This document shows positions 30,599 through 47,563 of a stretch of 56,845 nucleotides of DNA, piece after piece. Within the stretch, counting starts at the first letter, position 1; every line of letters begins with the position of its first letter. A program made the position numbers and the translations under genes. This DNA comes from a virus (taxonomy: Duplodnaviria > Caudoviricetes), in IMG/VR virus record IMGVR_UViG_3300030109_003433, positions 1 through 56,845 of that record, one strand, 5' to 3'. Under the pieces are notes generated by a model, which was given only the letters and a program-made list of their open reading frames with translations, made no database searches and was not told where the DNA came from.

Positions 30599-30832
30599 TC
30601 ACTCGAATCTCTCATTAAGATACCTCTCAAGATAATATTCCTGGGCTAGAGCATAGTCAGAAAATTCAACTTCGTAACCCTGGAAAGTTACATACAATTC
30701 AACGTCGTATTTGATCTCTGTTTTTGGTACGCCCCAGAACTCAGTTGTTTCTCTGTCGGGTTGAACTGTACATCCAGACCAATCGAGATCCTCCTCCTTG
30801 ACGTTGATTAATATAGCAAGTTCAGCCATCAC
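30599..30832 (-). CDS. Early hypothetical protein
   Basis: GGAGG SD. Confidence 0.7.
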   Translation of the reverse strand: MMAELAILINVKEEDLDWSGCTVQPDRETTEFWGVPKTEIKYDVELYVTFQGYEVEFSDYALAQEYYLERYLNERFE

Positions 30833-30847
30833 TTATCCTCCTTCCAT

Positions 30848-31216
30848 TCATTTTATTTTGTATACCGGAGGTACAACAGGTTTATCCCACTCCTCTCGTG
30901 GAATATCCCACTCCTCCTGTGGAATATCCTTCCATTTTTCCAAGTGCGGTGACGCTTCTCTTTTATCATTTATCAATTCCAAAACGTCTTCATCCACATC
31001 AGGCTTATTCCAACGAGAATCAAAAGGATTCAAAATCCCGACAGGAACAGTTGCATACGTCCATCCCATATCTTCCACCTGATCTTGAAAAATCCACTCT
31101 TCATCCTCTATGTGCGTGAGTGTATAAAAATGACAATCACTACAAAAACTTGTTTCGTCTTCAGAATCTACAGTTACTCTACACAAGCGACATGTTAAAT
31201 CATTAGCTGTCATCAC
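30848..31216 (-). CDS. Early hypothetical protein with two CxxC pairs
   Basis: AGGAG SD; CRLC..CSDC; DIP.EEW x2. Confidence 0.7.
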   Translation of the reverse strand: MMTANDLTCRLCRVTVDSEDETSFCSDCHFYTLTHIEDEEWIFQDQVEDMGWTYATVPVGILNPFDSRWNKPDVDEDVLELINDKREASPHLEKWKDIPQEEWDIPREEWDKPVVPPVYKIK

Positions 31217-31584
31217 TTATCTCCTATATTTGAATCATAATGCCTATGCTGAAATTTATCTGGATCTCCATAGCACCCCTCTAGCAATTCATCCAGGTAA
31301 CCTAACTCCCATTGTGTTCGCGTATGCCATTTGTGTTTGAAGATTCCGCAATCCCGCATAGCTGTACAAGATTTATAAAATGAATCATAAAAAGGTTGCC
31401 AGCTTGTAAGGTCATATCTTTTGATTTCAAAATCCAGGGTGAGTGCCAGATTTAACTCAAGTTGATTTCTTAGAAAGTCTTTTACTATATCGTAATGTTC
31501 ATGTTCTATCTGAATCACATCACTTTTTTCGCTCATGGCTCCCGCATGGCAGTCGCCGGAAACAGCATAGATAATTATTTTCAT
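31213..31584 (-). CDS. Early hypothetical protein
   Basis: GGAG SD; ATGA coupling. Confidence 0.7.
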   Translation of the reverse strand: MKIIIYAVSGDCHAGAMSEKSDVIQIEHEHYDIVKDFLRNQLELNLALTLDFEIKRYDLTSWQPFYDSFYKSCTAMRDCGIFKHKWHTRTQWELGYLDELLEGCYGDPDKFQHRHYDSNIGDK

Positions 31585-31781
31585 TGTGTTTTCTCCGTGA
31601 TATCTAACATGTTGAAAGGTAACGTTTCAAAATCAAAATAATCTCGCTCATCTTCATCAAAAAAATTATTAATGAAATGTTCTGTCATTTCTAGGCTCGT
31701 AAATAAACCCCAGGAGGTTGTACCTGTGCCAGTTTTGAGTCTGCTGATGACAATGAATTGACGGCACTCGTAATCACTCAT
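31581..31781 (-). CDS. Early hypothetical protein
   Basis: GAGGAG SD; ATGA coupling. Confidence 0.7.
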   Translation of the reverse strand: MSDYECRQFIVISRLKTGTGTTSWGLFTSLEMTEHFINNFFDEDERDYFDFETLPFNMLDITEKTQ

Positions 31782-31972
31782 TGTCTTGATCTCCTCTTTT
31801 TAGATTTGAGACTTAATCGAGCCATTTTAAAACCCATCTCCAAGTGATCAGGGTTGAACTGCTGTCCTGTCTCACGGCACATAACACGGAATACCTCAGA
31901 CAATTCAATTAATGATGTGTCAGGATATGCGTAGCAGTGTTTTGCAAAATCAATTATCAATCTGTTGTTCAT
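31778..31972 (-). CDS. Early hypothetical protein (downstream of hammerhead HH2)
   Basis: AGGAGTG SD. Confidence 0.7.
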   Translation of the reverse strand: MNNRLIIDFAKHCYAYPDTSLIELSEVFRVMCRETGQQFNPDHLEMGFKMARLSLKSKKRRSRQ

Positions 31973-32000
31973 GTTTCATCACTCCTATTTGTGACTGTGG

Positions 32001-32067
32001 TGGATTCCACATAGCTCCCAGTCAAGGGAGCTTTCATTAAGTATCCAACTTAAATCATCAGTGTGGA
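32001..32067 (-). ncRNA. Hammerhead ribozyme, type I (HH2)
   Basis: UCCACA-CUGAUGA-U UUAAGU(UGGAU)ACUUAA U-GAAA-GCUCCC(UUGACU)GGGAGC-UA^UGUGGA-AUCCA; full catalytic core, three helices; predicted cut 32012/32011. Confidence 0.9.
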
Positions 32068-32430
32068 CTAGCACTCCTCAGCATAGTTGATAACGATACG
32101 AATACTGCCTTTTGATTCCTTGATGTGAGCCTCCCTTGTCGGGCATTCTCTCAGCCATTCTAAAACCTGATGTTTCGTAGGTTTAGCCCAGACCAACCTG
32201 TCTCTAGGCTCACTTTTAAAATGCTTAAAAAGATCATCTGTGGTTGTGGCTAAGCCAATTACACAGAGTCCAGAGATACTCATACCACTTACGACAAACA
32301 TATAGTGGCCCATTATTCCTTCTGGATGATCGCCAGAGATAAGCTCAGACAAACCAATCATGAAAAGAGATAGACCCAGTAATGTGCCTAGCGCATAAAC
32401 CAATCCGATAAATACATATTTCATTTTCAA
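32068..32430 (-). CDS. Early membrane protein (two TM)
   Basis: AGGAGG SD; two hydrophobic helices. Confidence 0.7.
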   Translation of the reverse strand: MKMKYVFIGLVYALGTLLGLSLFMIGLSELISGDHPEGIMGHYMFVVSGMSISGLCVIGLATTTDDLFKHFKSEPRDRLVWAKPTKHQVLEWLRECPTREAHIKESKGSIRIVINYAEEC

Positions 32431-32831
32431 ACCTCCTTTATTAGCTGTGCTAAATCATCCAGAGTGTGTTCACGTGACCACGTTTTGTTTCGTTGCTTTT
32501 CCAGTTTGTTGATCCTTAGAGTTTTATCAATGGACTCAAGAAACATTTGACAAAAAGTATCATCGAAATATTTACGTTGATGGGTAATAGAATCAAACTC
32601 ATCCCAACAATCTCCCGCCAGATACATAAATAACTTCATGAATTTTTCGGGTTGGGCTTTCTTTATAGGATGCCCTGATATGGAAGGTTTCACTCCCTCC
32701 AGATCCTCCACGTTCTTTATCTCAGGGTAGTCTTTTCTATTGTTAGTGTAGATTTCCCACAAAATCATCGCGGCATACGTCACAATAGTTTTCTGATCTA
32801 AAACTCCAGTATTGCCAAATTTCTTAGCCAT
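32427..32831 (-). CDS. Early hypothetical protein
   Basis: GAGGAGGT SD; coupled. Confidence 0.75.
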   Translation of the reverse strand: MAKKFGNTGVLDQKTIVTYAAMILWEIYTNNRKDYPEIKNVEDLEGVKPSISGHPIKKAQPEKFMKLFMYLAGDCWDEFDSITHQRKYFDDTFCQMFLESIDKTLRINKLEKQRNKTWSREHTLDDLAQLIKEV

Positions 32832-33259
32832 TAGCTCACCTCCTCTAGTGAATTACTAATTTTATCTGATTCAGATTTCAACAGTTTTTTAAGCTCTTTA
32901 ATTGCTGTGATGTGGTCTTTATGGGATTCACTAACAGCTATAAAATCTTCTACTTTGGCGAATCCAATCTCTTTCCAGTCAGAACCAATCACTCTTTCTG
33001 ACACATAGATAATTGCCGTCCATCCACAGAATGTTTCACTAATGTTATAGCGGTATTCCGTATCGCCGTGAAGCTCGTGACTTTCGGTAATCTCTGCTCG
33101 TTCATTTCCACGTATGAAAGATTCAGCAGTTAACCTTTTACCTCCCTCGATAGCGTTAGCAAATAAAATGGCCGCACCTGATAGGTACCCGTCGCAATGA
33201 TGGTATATAGTCACATCAGATAGATCCCCTTTAAACTGATAAGTTGCTCTTGTTGACAT
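32831..33259 (-). CDS. Early hypothetical protein (MSTR..YxHxDGY type)
   Basis: ATG 33259 after AGGAGTG; IYHHCDGY and HGDTEYRY motifs. Confidence 0.75.
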   Translation of the reverse strand: MSTRATYQFKGDLSDVTIYHHCDGYLSGAAILFANAIEGGKRLTAESFIRGNERAEITESHELHGDTEYRYNISETFCGWTAIIYVSERVIGSDWKEIGFAKVEDFIAVSESHKDHITAIKELKKLLKSESDKISNSLEEVS

Positions 33260-33270
33260 TTCAAACACTC

Positions 33271-33702
33271 CTATTGGTTATAGATTTCATTCAGGTAAAA
33301 AGAGAAAGTAGAATTAGCTTTGTATTTGACCGGAAATTTTCCAGAATCCCAACTGTCAAAAGCAAAGCTTTCCTGATGTGCAATTTCAACATCAAAGACA
33401 ATGCTGTCATCTGTCAGACTTACTTCTATTAATGTTGCTCTAGCTAAATCGTAGTCACATAATCTGTTGCAGAATGTCACTGTGTTATCAATCTGATTAA
33501 GATTTGATCTAGCCTCCTTAGTGGTAGAAAAATCAAAATCTTCTGTAAAATATTCTCTGTAATGATCACTCGAATCATGAGTAATCATTAAATGATTTTG
33601 TTCAGAAATTCTCTGAAAACTTTTTAGTGTAGCTAACAGTTCTTTAAGATTTGTAAAACAGTTAGATACGATTGGCTTCCTATTAACTTTTCCTAATGAC
33701 AT
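33271..33702 (-). CDS. Early hypothetical protein (downstream of hammerhead HH1)
   Basis: Start moved to ATG 33702 after AGGAGTG; the track's 33738 start lies inside the ribozyme. Confidence 0.7.
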   Translation of the reverse strand: MSLGKVNRKPIVSNCFTNLKELLATLKSFQRISEQNHLMITHDSSDHYREYFTEDFDFSTTKEARSNLNQIDNTVTFCNRLCDYDLARATLIEVSLTDDSIVFDVEIAHQESFAFDSWDSGKFPVKYKANSTFSFYLNEIYNQ

Positions 33703-33727
33703 TTCAAACACTCCTAATATTTGTGGG

Positions 33728-33791
33728 TGGATTCCCATGAGGCCCTATTAGGGCCTTTCGGCAAGTGTCCAACTTGCTCTCATCAGATGGG
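33728..33791 (-). ncRNA. Hammerhead ribozyme, type I (HH1)
   Basis: CCCAU-CUGAUGA-G A GCAAGU(UGGAC)ACUUGC C-GAAA-GGCCCU(AAU)AGGGCC-UC^AUGGG-AAUCCA; full catalytic core, three helices; predicted cut 33739/33738. Confidence 0.95.
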
Positions 33792-33792
33792 C

Positions 33793-34047
33793 TTAAATGT
33801 TTTTGTCCTCCTCCGCTAGCCAATCGGGACAAAAATCCCAGTCAAAAGTGCCACAACCATCTCTAATTTCTTCTCGTGCATTGTTCCAATCTCTCTCACA
33901 TTTACGAGCCATACCAGATACAAATACTCGACAAAAGGAAGTGCCATCCGTTGCCCGTAATTTGTCTAGGTTGGGGAATCTCTCCGGTGCTTCTAGGAAT
34001 GCTTCCCATAGACACATTGCTGTTATTAACTCTAGTTCATTATTCAT
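33793..34047 (-). CDS. Early hypothetical protein
   Basis: ATG 34047 after AAGGAGTG; FDWDFCP motif. Confidence 0.7.
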   Translation of the reverse strand: MNNELELITAMCLWEAFLEAPERFPNLDKLRATDGTSFCRVFVSGMARKCERDWNNAREEIRDGCGTFDWDFCPDWLAEEDKNI

Positions 34048-34059
34048 CTCTATCACTCC

Positions 34060-34344
34060 TTATATGATTTCGTTTTTAGTTAAAGACCATTTTTCTATGA
34101 GAGGTTGTCCGTTCTCCCACTCATCAATGACTATGTAAGCAACAGTTTTTTTGATGTTTGCCATACGCCACCCACAAGCCCCATTGGTGCCAATCCATAT
34201 CCTGTGAGGATAATCTTCGACAGGTAGCCAACTATCCTCTGGATCATTTAGAGAGTAATAGAACTCGTTGCCAAATTCTTTTTCTCTAATTAGTCCAATT
34301 GGGTTTTTGAACTCTGGATGCTCTGTTAATATAACGTAATTCAT
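34060..34344 (-). CDS. Early hypothetical protein
   Basis: ATG 34344 after AAGGAGTG; YPHRIW...KKTVAYIVIDE. Confidence 0.7.
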   Translation of the reverse strand: MNYVILTEHPEFKNPIGLIREKEFGNEFYYSLNDPEDSWLPVEDYPHRIWIGTNGACGWRMANIKKTVAYIVIDEWENGQPLIEKWSLTKNEII

Positions 34345-34375
34345 CTCTATCACTCCTTTAGATTAAGTTTTTGTA

Positions 34376-34753
34376 TTATTTGCGAGTCCAATAGCTGTTG
34401 ACTGGTCTATATCGACAGTCCCACGTATCAATTACAGTCCCGCCGTCAACCGCCGTAAGGTGACCGCTGTTGCGTACAACAGCCGTTCCTTTGAAGTCCC
34501 AATTCCGCAATTTAATGTACTTGCCTTGTGCGTTTCGTGGTGGCTTGTTCTTTATCCACCCATGATCATCTAGGTATTTCATCCATACCTTGTCATGGTT
34601 CGGATACGCTCCCATCTCAAGACCAAGTGCCATCAAGTCCTCAAAGACTTCTTTATAGTTCTTACGCATCGCAATTGAAATTGAGCGAACAACGCAATCG
34701 TCCTTGAACGTTTTGCAAAGTCTACCGCCGTCAGTTTCATAAAAATCCATCAT
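34376..34753 (-). CDS. Early protein with possible Cys-His-Asp (papain-like) triad
   Basis: DCVVR, GHL and DTWD motifs; AGGAGTG SD. Confidence 0.55.
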   Translation of the reverse strand: MMDFYETDGGRLCKTFKDDCVVRSISIAMRKNYKEVFEDLMALGLEMGAYPNHDKVWMKYLDDHGWIKNKPPRNAQGKYIKLRNWDFKGTAVVRNSGHLTAVDGGTVIDTWDCRYRPVNSYWTRK

Positions 34754-34779
34754 TTCTATCACTCCTAAGTTATGGCCGC

Positions 34780-35817
34780 TCACGCGGCCTCCTCTATGAT
34801 TTGTGGTTGCATATCAAACAAGAATGTAACTGCTTGTGTTGATTCTCTCGCGGCATCAATCACGCCCCGCTTGTCGTTGCCTAAATGCTGTATCCAGTTA
34901 TTAATATATATTGCGTGGTCTTCTCGTGGCTCCATGCTAACTCCCAGAATGTGCGAGAGTTGCGCGGATCCCATCTCTGCAATTAACTCCTCGTAAGCAT
35001 ACAAAGGATCGCCCCATCTATTAGACTTGAGTCTATCGAGTCTGGATTTATGCCCAGTCCAGTGTGTTAGCTCATGGAGTAAAACGGCGTAGTAAGCTTC
35101 AGGACTATCAAATAGTTCCTTATCAGGCATTCCAATATAATCTTTTTGCGGGTTAAAGAAGGCACCCTTTTGACCGTGTTTGATAATCGCGTTGGTGTTC
35201 TTTATGAATTGCTCTACTCGTTCGATTTTTTCGAAAATTGTTTCTGGTTCTTTTTCTTGTACTGGGTTGAGTTCGGCGTAAGTTTTTGCATTGTCTTTGA
35301 TGACGCTAACAAATGGCTTTTTTAACTTGGTGATTTCTTTTCCGTTCTCTTTAACTGTTACAGTTTCGAATACGGCCTCTTTCACCATCTCGGCATTAAA
35401 TACAGTTAAATTAGTATTGCGGAAATAATCGGGCTTCTCTTTTTGATCTCCGGTTTTTCCGTTCTCGTCGGGATCTTTGTTATAGCATGGGAACGTACAA
35501 AATATTTTAGCGTCATGAGATTTACCTACAACCTGAAAACCCATCTCTGCCCATCCGTTGTAGGTGTTCCAATATGGGCTTTTAAATTCTTGTTCTTGGG
35601 CTACACTGTTTAGAATTAATTGATTTAGAAATGATCCGTACACTCTTCCGGTCTTCGCATTGCGTGGAACGATTGCTGTACCATCGCGCCAACTCTTAGA
35701 CCAATCCGCACCTTGAGACTGCATCATATCTATCACTTTATCTGTCACCCATTGGCAAGCCTTTTCATTTGAACTGTGCTTGCTAGCAGATTTCTTTTTA
35801 TAAGTTTTCTTAGCCAT
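34780..35817 (-). CDS. ardC: ArdC family antirestriction ssDNA-binding protein with zincin-like domain
   Basis: P.N..TGR.Y...N, W.TY..W, VFN; YYAVLLHELTHWTGH.SRL.R, YA.EELIAE. Confidence 0.9.
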   Translation of the reverse strand: MAKKTYKKKSASKHSSNEKACQWVTDKVIDMMQSQGADWSKSWRDGTAIVPRNAKTGRVYGSFLNQLILNSVAQEQEFKSPYWNTYNGWAEMGFQVVGKSHDAKIFCTFPCYNKDPDENGKTGDQKEKPDYFRNTNLTVFNAEMVKEAVFETVTVKENGKEITKLKKPFVSVIKDNAKTYAELNPVQEKEPETIFEKIERVEQFIKNTNAIIKHGQKGAFFNPQKDYIGMPDKELFDSPEAYYAVLLHELTHWTGHKSRLDRLKSNRWGDPLYAYEELIAEMGSAQLSHILGVSMEPREDHAIYINNWIQHLGNDKRGVIDAARESTQAVTFLFDMQPQIIEEAA

Positions 35818-35880: not shown

Positions 35881-35908
35881 ATTATAAATACTGTGTCAAT
35901 AGGTGCAA
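35881..35908 (-). promoter_or_regulatory. Putative sigma70 early promoter
   Basis: TTGCAC-N16-TATAAT on minus strand upstream of ardC. Confidence 0.5.
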
Positions 35909-35997
35909 ACAAGAAAAAACAATAAAATGTGTAAAATTACCAAAATAGCGTTATTGGTGTATTGATATATGAGAAAGTGCGCTTTAGGTTTTCTAGT

Positions 35998-45997: not shown

Positions 45998-46936
45998 ATG
46001 GCTATTTCAAGAGCGCAGATGCTCAAAGAGCTGTTGCCAGGTCTTAATGCCCTGTTCGGCTTAGAGTATGAGAAGTATGAAGATGAGCATACGATGATTT
46101 ATGAAAGTGAATCATCAGATCGTTCATTTGAAGAGGAAGTAAAACTTTCGGGTTTTGCGGCGGCACCTGTTAAAGCTGAGGGAGCGGCAATTAGCTACGA
46201 CTCAGCGCAGGAGTCTTTTACTGCTAGATACAACCACGAAACCATTGCAATGGGATTTTCGATCACTGAAGAAGCTATGGAGGATAACCTCTATGATTCT
46301 TTATCTGCTCGTTACACCAAGGCATTGGCTCGTGGTATGGCGTATACCAAGCAAGTAAAAGCGGCTTTTCCTCTAAACAACGGTTTCACCAACTCATTCC
46401 AGTCTGGTGACGGGGTTAACCTGTTTACTGCATCTGGCGATGGTGTAACTGGTGGTGATGGACACCCGCTTGTAAGCGGCGGCAAGAACAGCAACCGTCC
46501 TGCGACAGCGGCTGATCTTAACGAAACTTCATTAGAAGATGCAGTGATTAACATTGCGGCGTTTACTGATGAGCGTGGACTTTTGATTGCGGCTCGTCCT
46601 AGACGATTAGTTGTTCCGCCTGCGTTGCAATTCGTTGCAACTCGTCTGCTAGATTCGGATTTGCGTACTGCAACAGCAGATAACGACATCAACGCAATCC
46701 GTAATAACGGAGCGATACCAGAAGGCTATTCAGTCAATCATTACTTGACTGACACAAACGCTTTCTTTGTTATCACTGACGTTCCAAATGGAATGAAGCA
46801 CTTTGAGCGTACTTCGCTTGAAACTTCTATGGACGGCGACTTTGACACAGGTAATGTTCGTTATAAAGCTAGAGAGCGGTATAGTTTTGGTGTATCTGAC
46901 CCTCTGGGAATCTATGGTTCTCCAGGTACATCGTAA
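45998..46936 (+). CDS. Major capsid protein
   Basis: MAISRAQMLKELLPGLNALFG, FSITEEA.EDNLY, LVVPPAL, DFDTGNVRYKARERYSFG. Confidence 0.9.
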   Translation: MAISRAQMLKELLPGLNALFGLEYEKYEDEHTMIYESESSDRSFEEEVKLSGFAAAPVKAEGAAISYDSAQESFTARYNHETIAMGFSITEEAMEDNLYDSLSARYTKALARGMAYTKQVKAAFPLNNGFTNSFQSGDGVNLFTASGDGVTGGDGHPLVSGGKNSNRPATAADLNETSLEDAVINIAAFTDERGLLIAARPRRLVVPPALQFVATRLLDSDLRTATADNDINAIRNNGAIPEGYSVNHYLTDTNAFFVITDVPNGMKHFERTSLETSMDGDFDTGNVRYKARERYSFGVSDPLGIYGSPGTS

Positions 46937-46990: not shown

Positions 46991-47030
46991 TTCCCTGACT
47001 GCGTAAGCAGACACTAGCCAAGACAGGAGA
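46991..47030 (+). ncRNA. Candidate cis-regulatory leader RNA covering the SD
   Basis: CCUG/CAGG outer helix, CUGC-GUAA-GCAG GNRA hairpin. Confidence 0.4.
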
Positions 47031-47035
47031 ATATA

Positions 47036-47563
47036 ATGGCTAATACAACTTTTAATGGCCCAGTCCGTTCAGAGAATGGATTTACGGTTATATCCAAAAA
47101 CAGTACAACAGGTACTGTTACAACTGAGTTCACCCTTGACGGAAACGGCTTGCAGGTCACTCCAGTTGCCTTAGCAGATACAACAGCTATTTCGCTAACA
47201 GCAACGGCTCATGGAGGAAGAACCTCTGTAGTTCCTGCTCTTTCAGCTAATTGCACTTTGACTTTGCCTAGTCCCTCTGCTGGTGTTTTCTTTAAGCTGG
47301 TTTACGGTGGTGCGGCAGAAGAGGCAGAAAATCTGATTATTGATACAGGATCAGACACAAACTTCTATCTTGGCGGCATCGTTCATCTTGACTCAAACGC
47401 AGATAATGTTTCTGTATATGCAGATGGAAACTCAAACTCAATCCTGACGTTAACGGATTTTGGTTTGTTTGAGATTAATGTACTGGCAAAAGATTCAACC
47501 AATTGGTATATCTGGGGCTATCAAGAAGGTGCGGATGTTCCTGCCTTCACTGACCAGTCATAA
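47036..47563 (+). CDS. Virion structural protein (head fibre/decoration-like)
   Basis: MANTTFNGPVRSENGF start; follows the capsid gene. Confidence 0.7.
   Translation: MANTTFNGPVRSENGFTVISKNSTTGTVTTEFTLDGNGLQVTPVALADTTAISLTATAHGGRTSVVPALSANCTLTLPSPSAGVFFKLVYGGAAEEAENLIIDTGSDTNFYLGGIVHLDSNADNVSVYADGNSNSILTLTDFGLFEINVLAKDSTNWYIWGYQEGADVPAFTDQS

What the first reader, a model, noticed from the sequence alone, without database searches (positions are those of the whole stretch)
32001..33791. Two hammerhead ribozymes punctuate the phage early operon
Seen: the only two sizeable gaps inside the leftward early operon are each filled by a complete type I hammerhead (CUGAUGA, GAAA, UH, three helices) in the sense orientation. 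Each starts 0-1 nt after the upstream stop codon. The predicted cuts leave 36-nt and 39-nt leaders before starts 33702 and 31972, both with an AGGAGUG SD. Helix sequences differ between the copies but pairing is kept, indicating selection on structure. Established: hammerheads self-cleave to 5'-OH and 2',3'-cyclic phosphate ends; they occur in bacterial and phage DNA with largely unresolved roles; T7 early mRNA is cut by host RNase III. Inference: protein-independent processing of the ArdC-led early mRNA into three separately stabilised and translated pieces, a natural insulator system.
Basis: partly seen in the sequence, partly recalled or inferred. Interest (0 to 1): 0.92.

Follow-up and report, generated by a model that had tools for sequence, protein, structure and literature searches.

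The report
Two hammerhead ribozymes in phage operon
Two small self-cutting hammerhead RNAs sit in the only two gaps of a marine phage operon that starts with an anti-restriction gene. This is a clean but ordinary example of an arrangement described in phages and prophages in 2011, and cutting has not been tested here.

Summary
On the minus strand, 33791-33734 (E1) and 32067-32006 (E2) each carry CUGAUGA, GAAA, U-H and three helices with helix I open (type I). They fill the only gaps over 25 nt in the ArdC-led operon. The predicted cuts leave 36- and 39-nt leaders with AGGAGUG.

Chance is excluded. A descriptor finds exactly these two sites; 1 of 300 shuffled windows gave any hit. A model built from 23 viral-contig relatives scores them 73.2 and 55.9 bits, against 9.8 for the next window hit.

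The family shows covariation in all three helices and in a loop II / 3'-tail pseudoknot. Its placement is stereotyped: stop codon, ribozyme, leader of about 33-43 nt, start.

Rfam's hammerhead models miss both elements, and also a canonical relative. E2 has U/U where G10.1-C11.1 is expected.

The reading as protein-free mRNA processing is plausible but untested. Perreault et al. 2011 proposed it, and this scan has noted it many times.

Possibly new details: a covarying hairpin at the 5' end of the downstream product, and repeated adjacency to ArdC genes.

Verdict: new member of a known kind, low to moderate interest.

The parts
33734..33791 (-). E1, type I hammerhead. Helix I 33791-33787 with 33738-33734; CUGAUGA 33786-33780; helix II 33779-33760; GAAA 33759-33756; helix III 33756-33740; C17 at 33739. 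Predicted cut between 33739 and 33738.
   Evidence: Sequence; 73.2 bits to family model R1; descriptor hit; weak RAGATH-1-hammerhead match, 17.7 bits, E 0.38.
33724..33733 (-). E1 3' tail. UCCA (33731-33728) can pair with loop II UGGA (33771-33768) as a pseudoknot. CCCA (33727-33724) can pair with UGGG (33737-33734) as an alternative hairpin at the 5' end of the downstream product.
   Evidence: family covariation.
32006..32067 (-). E2, type I hammerhead variant. Helix I 32067-32062 with 32011-32006; CUGAUGA 32061-32055; helix II 32053-32037 flanked by U32054 and U32036; GAAA 32035-32032; helix III 32032-32013; A17 at 32012. Predicted cut between 32012 and 32011.
   Evidence: Sequence; 55.9 bits to R1; 62-nt fold -21.8 kcal/mol, z -5.1; descriptor hit; no Rfam hammerhead match.
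31996..32005 (-). E2 3' tail. AUCCA (32005-32001) pairs with loop II UGGAU (32047-32043). CCACA (32000-31996) pairs with UGUGG (32011-32007) as the alternative 5'-terminal hairpin.
33703..33738 (-). 36-nt leader left by the E1 cut, with AGGAGUG at 33715-33709, before the ATG at 33702.
31973..32011 (-). 39-nt leader left by the E2 cut, with AGGAGUG at 31986-31980, before the ATG at 31972.
34780..35817 (-). ArdC-type anti-restriction gene, the first gene of the operon.
   Evidence: Pfam ArdcN 1.3e-17 and MPTase-PolyVal 1.4e-43; phrog_7245 6.5e-59.
33793..34783 (-). Three small genes between ArdC and E1 (34783-34376, 34353-34060, 34056-33793). With ArdC they form predicted piece 1.
   Evidence: two of the three match PHROGs of unknown function.
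32068..33702 (-). Four genes of unknown function between E1 and E2 (33702-33271, 33259-32831, 32831-32427, 32424-32068). Predicted piece 2.
   Evidence: no Pfam or PHROG match.
30599..31972 (-). Five small genes after E2. Predicted piece 3.
   Evidence: Only the first two genes (31972-31778 and 31781-31581) were scanned against PHROGs and Pfam.
35881..35909 (-). Sigma-70-like site (TTTGCA, 17 nt, TATAAT; 10 of 12 matches) 64 nt upstream of the ArdC start. Possible operon promoter.
   Evidence: This is a consensus match only: the region as a whole has fewer such sites (12) than its shuffles (19 +/- 3.9).

Best explanation
E1 and E2 belong to a subclass of type I hammerhead ribozymes that is common in phage contigs. 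In this subclass, loop II (UGGAY) pairs with the tail just 3' of helix I (AUCCA). This pseudoknot would hold helices I and II side by side.

Proposed mechanism (inferred; the operon mRNA itself is also inferred):
1. The elements are transcribed as part of the leftward ArdC operon mRNA. Each cuts itself after N17 and yields a 2',3'-cyclic phosphate and a 5'-OH.
2. Helix I is the open helix, so the whole ribozyme body stays on the 3' end of the upstream piece, directly after its stop codon. There it could act as a structured 3' end.
3. The downstream piece starts 36 or 39 nt before its start codon.
4. Its first nucleotides can refold with a conserved downstream complement into a small 5'-terminal hairpin. 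This would release the upstream piece and leave a short, uniform leader with the SD.

The net effect would be three separate mRNAs (4 + 4 + 5 genes) made without a host RNase.

Shown: motif, family membership, covariation, placement.
Inferred: cleavage, which is likelier for E1 than for E2, and every downstream consequence.
For: Core and helices are read directly from the sequence.

Descriptor: 2 hits in the window; 1 of 300 shuffled windows gave any hit.

Family model R1 was built from 23 viral-contig elements, none from the window.
- E1 scores 73.2 bits and E2 55.9 bits; the next best window hit scores 9.8.
- Among the 74 of 118 non-family loci searched, which carry the same 20 fixed bases, the best score was 20.9 bits.

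On 42 aligned elements (41 distinct rows), 93.6% of cells pair, against 70.8% in shuffles, and 18 of 21 pairs change on both sides. Sliding the 3' partners drops pairing to 34-40%.

The three central pseudoknot pairs covary: G-C to A-U 6 times at one pair and once at another, and A-U to U-A twice. The pseudoknot was not part of the model.

Placement, over 40 distinct complete elements including the window's two:
- A stop codon lies 0-3 nt before helix I in 27 of the 34 with an upstream ORF found.
- The cut-to-start distance is 33-43 nt in 34 of the 39 with a start found.

Several relatives carry 2-3 copies within a few kb.

ArdC-type genes sit directly next to such elements in 4 of 20 flanking proteins that I scanned.

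Published precedent: clustered prophage hammerheads cleave in vitro, and in E. coli for an ardA-flanking set (PMC3088659, passages).
Against: No RNA evidence is available.

No Rfam hammerhead model reaches its gathering score on either element. A canonical relative also fails, so this mainly reflects the models.

E2 has U opposite U at 10.1/11.1. Perreault et al. used mispairing at that position as a rejection criterion. Its helix II is also A-U rich.

A 97%-identical relative (L121) has a 222-nt deletion. It removes helix I 5', the core, helix II and half of helix III of E2, together with half of the upstream gene. E2 is therefore dispensable or lost in that record.

The relatives were found with a pattern taken from the window's own elements, so part of the R1 score arises by construction.

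Pair counts for helices I-III come from an alignment fitted to that structure.

The hairpins of the cut products are not more stable than shuffles (z 0.14 to -1.25).
Confidence: 0.7

Rival explanations
1. One or both elements, above all E2, are catalytically dead descendants of the hammerhead family. They would persist as plain structured spacers: 3'-end protecting hairpins, RNase entry or barrier sites, or translation-uncoupling structures. No self-cleavage would occur.
For: E2 has U/U at 10.1/11.1, gives no Rfam hammerhead match even at E up to 10 on an 81-nt slice, and has an A-U rich helix II. A close relative lost most of E2. An A-U rich RiboJ variant was reported non-functional in cells (PMC7536230, passage).
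Against: All other invariant core bases are intact in both elements.

In E2, helices I and III, six pairs of helix II and the 5-bp pseudoknot are kept through changes on both sides relative to E1.

The same U...U arrangement recurs in two other, otherwise different family members (L077:6026-6096 and L004:857-929). All three have A17, which suggests a tolerated variant and not decay.

A plain spacer would not need CUGAUGA, GAAA and U-H conserved.
Confidence: 0.17
2. The elements are regulated switches, not constitutive cutters. The downstream complement of helix I's 3' strand competes with helix I. A ribosome stopping 0-1 nt before helix I covers its 5' strand. Cleavage and downstream expression would then depend on transcription-translation timing.
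For: The alternative hairpin covaries with helix I: 77.9% of cells pair against 61.3% in shuffles, and the covariation score is 0.415 against 0.132. It has at least 4 bp in 29 of 40 elements, and the stop codon abuts helix I in 27 of 34.
Against: The hairpins are weak, -4.5 and -5.7 kcal/mol. Helix I's 5' strand is transcribed first. The same data fit a simple post-cleavage hairpin. No ligand- or factor-binding element is evident.
Confidence: 0.1
3. The motifs are chance look-alikes, or belong to the plus strand.
For: Rfam found nothing at gathering thresholds.
Against: The descriptor hit 1 of 300 shuffles. There is a 35-bit gap to chance sequences that hold the same fixed bases. Family covariation is strong. 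All surrounding genes with family matches are on the minus strand.
Confidence: 0.01

Closest known systems
Clustered hammerhead ribozymes flanking genes in prophages and phages (Perreault, Weinberg, Roth et al. 2011, PMC3088659; passages read)
   Same: Several sense-strand hammerheads sit in intergenic gaps of a phage operon. Pseudoknots link helices I and II. The elements are associated with an anti-restriction gene (ardA there, ArdC here). The proposed role is cutting long phage transcripts into gene- or operon-length mRNAs.
   Different: There are only two copies here. Both are type I, with a loop II / 3'-tail pseudoknot. One copy has U/U at 10.1/11.1. The conserved downstream complement of helix I was not mentioned in the passages I read; I did not see the paper's figures or supplements.
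Rfam hammerhead families (RF00163 type I, RF02276 type II, RF03152 RAGATH-1 hammerhead)
   Same: The same catalytic core and three-way junction. E1 aligns to the core half of RAGATH-1-hammerhead (model positions 26-77).
   Different: Scores lie far below the gathering thresholds: 17.7 against 56.3 bits for E1, nothing for E2, and 12-15 bits for a canonical relative. This subclass does not appear to be represented in those models.
Pseudoknot-containing hammerhead with solved structure (Zhan et al. 2024, PMC11300833; passages read)
   Same: A pseudoknot involving the helix II loop replaces the loop-loop contact. That form was reported to be very fast.
   Different: There the partner is the loop of an extra stem-loop attached to helix I, and helix II is minimal. 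Here helix II has 6-7 bp and the partner is the single-stranded tail 3' of helix I.
RiboJ synthetic insulator (hammerhead plus a 23-nt hairpin before the RBS; described in PMC7536230, passage)
   Same: It works alike: a hammerhead removes the upstream context, and a small hairpin then precedes the ribosome-binding site.
   Different: RiboJ is engineered from a satellite-RNA ribozyme. Here the hairpin re-uses helix I's 3' strand and can form only after, or instead of, helix I. This is an analogy, not membership.
RNase III processing of T7 early mRNA (recalled; no call)
   Same: A phage early polycistronic mRNA is cut between genes into separately stable pieces.
   Different: T7 uses a host protein enzyme and double-stranded sites, and leaves 5'-phosphate and 3'-OH ends.

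Membership tests
Hammerhead ribozyme, type I | Core strand C3-U4-G5-A6-N7-G8-A9 directly 3' of helix I | tested here: met
   CUGAUGA at 33786-33780 and at 32061-32055.
Hammerhead ribozyme, type I | G12-A13-A14, an A15.1-U16.1 pair, and N17 that is not G at the cleavage site | tested here: met
   E1 has GAAA, then helix III, then U-C. E2 has GAAA, then helix III, then U-A.
Hammerhead ribozyme, type I | Three helices around the core, helix I open, supported by covariation | tested here: met
   Helices of 5, 6-7 and 7 bp in both elements. In the family, helix I pairs in 100% of cells, helix II in 95.6% and helix III in 96.3%; 15 of these 16 pairs change on both sides (on a model-fitted alignment).
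Hammerhead ribozyme, type I | Watson-Crick pair at 10.1/11.1 (usually G-C) next to the core | tested here: not met
   E1 has G-C followed by a bulged A; 7 of 40 family members share this 'GA' form. E2 has U opposite U. So E2 fails this criterion, while E1 meets it. The U...U form recurs in 3 of 40 elements. I therefore file E2 as a core-adjacent variant whose activity is open.
Hammerhead ribozyme, type I | Tertiary contact holding helices I and II parallel | tested here: met
   Loop II pairs with the 3' tail over 4 bp (E1) and 5 bp (E2). The three central pairs all form in 37 of 40 elements and covary.
Hammerhead ribozyme, type I | Score at or above an Rfam hammerhead gathering threshold | tested here: not met
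   This is a curated cut-off, not a structural feature. The canonical relative L003 also fails it.
Hammerhead ribozyme, type I | Site-specific self-cleavage giving 2',3'-cyclic phosphate and 5'-OH | not testable with these tools
   No RNA holder was available.
Clustered phage/prophage hammerheads (Perreault 2011) | Two or more sense-strand hammerheads in intergenic gaps flanking genes of a phage | tested here: met
   Two copies lie 1.7 kb apart and flank four genes. The record is a phage, with terminase, portal, head and tail genes.

The most novel reading that the evidence does not exclude
In this phage hammerhead subclass the stretch just after the pseudoknot tail is selected to repeat helix I's 5' strand. 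Once the RNA is cut, the new 5'-OH end would snap into its own 4-5 bp hairpin, with AAUCCA as the loop. This would be a built-in, protein-free 'cut, release and cap' module. It would make cleavage irreversible and give each downstream mRNA a protected, uniform leader of 33-43 nt. That would be a natural counterpart of the engineered RiboJ insulator, used preferentially around ArdC-type anti-defence operons. I did not find this hairpin described in the passages I read of PMC3088659 and PMC6765202, nor among the listings of searches. Figures and supplements were not seen.
Probability: 0.35. Interest if true: 0.45.

Novelty: new member of a known kind. Interest (0 to 1): 0.3.

Why it matters
The biological role of bacterial and phage hammerheads is still described as unresolved (review PMC6765202, passage).

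This window adds no new kind of system. It does give a compact test case: two ribozymes, one canonical and one a natural U/U variant, with a covarying pseudoknot and a covarying post-cleavage hairpin, in an anti-restriction operon.

Simple cleavage and reporter assays on this pair could show three things:
- whether such elements insulate phage genes;
- whether the hairpin matters;
- how much deviation the core tolerates.

Practically, the family model shows that Rfam's hammerhead models miss this common phage subclass.

Tried and rejected
Rfam:
- At gathering thresholds on the whole window: no hammerhead, only Mu-gpT-DE.
- In E-value mode on 2 kb: nothing relevant.
- On 81-nt slices: a weak RAGATH-1 match for E1 and none for E2.
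- RF00163 over the record: only an unrelated 12.9-bit hit at 46596-46654.
- I do not treat these as evidence against, because a canonical relative also fails.

blastn of 3 kb against the phage collection: no match.

Search for relatives by protein:
- The gene after E1 gave none.
- The gene before E2 gave one, L121.

The look-up of sequencing runs: no RNA holder listed, so expression and RNA ends could not be examined.

Read laying on DNA contigs of four seawater or marine runs:
- Contigs cover 31700-32687 (two runs), 31700-32203 and 31700-32088. They show 2, 2, 0 and 0 other letters, none inside E2.
- Contigs cover 33697-33847 with 1 other letter, at a position that was not listed.
- The flanks are equally conserved, so this says nothing specific about selection on the ribozymes.
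- Some bins had no cover; no conclusion is drawn from that.

None of the 120 pattern matches passed the strict structural filter, and 5 passed a filter on helix I alone. This served only as a chance control. It says nothing about absence from bacterial genomes or about the host.

Thermodynamics of the cut products: the 5' hairpins appear in the minimum-energy folds but are not more stable than shuffles. The case for them rests on covariation only.

The minimum-energy fold of uncleaved E1 with its flanks pairs the SD with helix I 5' and the core. I did not pursue this; it is a single-sequence prediction that competes with the ribozyme fold.

Considered and dropped:
- Circularisation or splicing of the fragment between E1 and E2. 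The helix I strands of the two copies are not complementary.
- Rho-independent terminators. No U tract follows the hairpins.
- A reading of the direct repeat of helix I's 5' strand as a target-site duplication. There is no supporting evidence.

Supplementary files of the papers were closed. Perreault et al.'s alignments (Dataset S1) and Figures 2, 3 and S2 may already include this subclass and its pseudoknot.
Full report
**What is there**

The window is a whole 56.8-kb IMG/VR virus record, estimated 96% complete. It carries terminase small and large subunit, portal, head, tail-fibre and primase-helicase genes. DNA contigs holding it come from marine or seawater metagenomes.

A block of 13 minus-strand genes runs from 35817 to 30599. 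Its first gene, 35817-34780, is an ArdC-type anti-restriction protein:
- Pfam ArdcN 1.3e-17;
- Pfam MPTase-PolyVal 1.4e-43;
- phrog_7245 6.5e-59.

Of the next nine genes, which I scanned, three match only PHROGs of unknown function, one of them weakly. The other six have no match. The last three genes of the block were not scanned.

The only gaps longer than 25 nt in this block are 33792-33703 and 32067-31973.

**The two elements (minus strand)**

Each has:
- a 5-6 bp helix I whose 5' strand starts 1 nt (E1) or 0 nt (E2) after the upstream stop codon;
- CUGAUGA;
- a 6-7 bp helix II;
- GAAA;
- a 7-bp helix III that begins with the last A of GAAA and ends with U;
- then C (E1) or A (E2), followed by the 3' strand of helix I.

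This is the type I hammerhead layout. The predicted cuts fall between 33739 and 33738, and between 32012 and 32011. They leave 36- and 39-nt leaders that carry AGGAGUG.

**Is it chance?**

- A descriptor for this layout finds exactly these two places on both strands of the window. Of 300 dinucleotide-preserving shuffles of the window, 1 had a single hit and none had two. The descriptor was written after the fact but is permissive.
- The isolated 62-nt E2 folds into the three-helix shape as its minimum-energy structure (z = -5.1). E1 is less distinctive (z = -2.65).

**Database models**

Rfam reports no hammerhead at gathering thresholds.

In E-value mode on 81-nt slices:
- E1 aligns to the core half of RAGATH-1-hammerhead at 17.7 bits (threshold 56.3, E 0.38);
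- E2 matches no hammerhead model.

RF00163 run over the record hits only an unrelated place at 12.9 bits.

A canonical relative (L003) also reaches only 12-15 bits on the type I and type II models. The miss therefore reflects the models and not the elements.

**Relatives**

By a helix I filter, 27 distinct elements passed. Two of those were the window's own, and I judged two by eye to be chance, which left 23.

I aligned those 23 and built covariance model R1 without the window's sequences. Results with R1:
- On the window with filters off, E1 scores 73.2 bits and E2 55.9 bits. The next hit scores 9.8 bits.
- The relatives were selected through 20 fixed bases taken from the window, so part of these scores arises by construction.
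- As a control I searched 74 non-family loci that hold the same 20 bases. Their best score is 20.9 bits.
- R1 also found further copies in the family loci that lack the exact pattern. Several contigs hold 2-3 copies within a few kb.

**Covariation**

The alignment has 42 matches and 41 distinct rows.
- 93.6% of cells pair, against 70.8 +/- 0.9% in shuffles (0 of 500 shuffles reach the observed value).
- 18 of 21 pairs show changes on both sides.
- Sliding the 3' partners by 1-3 columns drops pairing to 34-40%.

The alignment is fitted to helices I-III, which favours those three.

The pseudoknot was not in the model. It pairs loop II with the tail 3' of helix I:
- its central three pairs form in 37 of 40 complete distinct elements;
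- they covary, for example GGAU/AUCC becoming GAAU/AUUC, and a UAGU/ACUA form.

E1 has 4 and E2 has 5 of the 5 pseudoknot pairs.

Perreault et al. state that pseudoknots occur in all three hammerhead types, so this feature is known in kind.

**Placement**

Over the same 40 elements:
- A stop codon of an upstream ORF lies 0-3 nt before helix I in 27 of the 34 where such an ORF was found.
- The distance from the cut to the next start is 33-43 nt in 34 of the 39 where a start was found. Two of the five exceptions are script miscalls of a GUG inside the SD, one of them E1.

**A second conserved pairing**

The four or five bases after the tail repeat helix I's 5' strand. They can pair with helix I's 3' strand, with AAUCCA as the loop.

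- Across the family, 77.9% of cells pair, against 61.3 +/- 2.6% in shuffles. The covariation score is 0.415 against 0.132. Slid controls score 0.098 at most on one side and 0.123 at most on the other.
- At least 4 consecutive pairs are present in 29 of 40 elements.
- The pairing is absent from the three elements each of the two closely related contigs L039 and L093.
- In both window elements the minimum-energy fold of the predicted downstream product begins with this hairpin. It is weak (-4.5 and -5.7 kcal/mol) and no better than shuffles.

I read it as a hairpin that forms after cleavage. It would displace the upstream fragment and close the new 5' end. This is inference.

**E2's deviation**

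After CUGAUGA comes U, then six Watson-Crick pairs, then U before GAAA. So 10.1/11.1 is U opposite U.

Perreault et al. rejected candidates with a mispair there unless they lay in typical contexts such as prophages, and those they often tested.

The same U...U form occurs in 3 of 40 elements: E2, L077:6026-6096 and L004:857-929. All three have A at position 17, against 1 of the other 37. This recurrence argues for a tolerated variant. Activity remains open.

**Evidence against importance**

L121 is a viral contig 97% identical over the upstream gene. It has a 222-nt deletion that joins codon 61 of that gene to the middle of helix III of E2. The tail, SD and next gene remain intact. The contig shows no R1 match at an E1-like position either.

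**Context in relatives**

I chose 20 flanking proteins from the relatives, mostly the larger ones. Four are ArdC-type (phrog_7245). Two lie directly downstream of a hammerhead (L004, L080) and two directly upstream (L112, L107).

This parallels the published ardA association.

**What is known**

- Perreault et al. 2011 describe multiple hammerheads flanking genes in prophages. They propose processing of long phage transcripts. They report in vitro cleavage for three such arrangements and cleavage in E. coli for the Agrobacterium set that flanks ardA (passages).
- A 2019 review still calls the purpose undefined (passage).
- Earlier notes of this scan list many phage operons punctuated by hammerheads, several with 10-33 copies. 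These are unchecked notes and I do not use them as support. They do show that the arrangement has been met repeatedly in this scan.

**Verdict**

E1 is a member of a hammerhead subclass common in phage contigs. E2 is a homologous variant with an unusual 10.1/11.1.

Protein-free cutting of the ArdC operon mRNA into three pieces is the most likely function. It is neither demonstrated here nor new as an idea.

The covarying post-cleavage hairpin, the U...U variant and the ArdC link are the only parts that might add something.

Noticed in passing
window 46993-47038 (+): Rfam Mu-gpT-DE RNA, 51 bits (gathering 49, E 7e-09). It lies between the major-head-like gene (45998-46936) and the ORF starting at 47036, and its 3' end includes that start codon.
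   Followed up: no
L121:3174-3211, compared with window 32245-32024: A 97%-identical viral contig has a 222-nt deletion. It fuses the first 61 codons of the gene upstream of E2 to the 3' third of E2. The ribozyme is destroyed, but its tail, the SD and the next gene are kept.
   Followed up: yes
window 33717-33697 and 33274-33254 (-): The translation-initiation regions of two consecutive genes, with starts at 33702 and 33259, share an identical stretch of about 20 nt that covers the SD, the spacer, the ATG and the first codon. Only the first of the two is preceded by a hammerhead.
   Followed up: no
L004, L080, L107, L112 (viral contigs): ArdC-type anti-restriction genes (phrog_7245) lie directly next to hammerheads of this subclass in 4 of 20 flanking proteins scanned.
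   Followed up: partly
L093:3638-3739 and L039:10436-10537: These are family members about 100 nt long, which the model aligns with a long insertion in the helix III region. Their pseudoknot sequence is changed on both sides (loop UGGU or UAGU with tail ACUA).
   Followed up: partly
L003:9040-9094: In this relative, Rfam's type II model weakly aligns (15.2 bits) to GAAA, helix III, the alternative hairpin and a CUGAGGA that overlaps the SD. This is probably a coincidence of the SD with the CUGANGA core motif.
   Followed up: no
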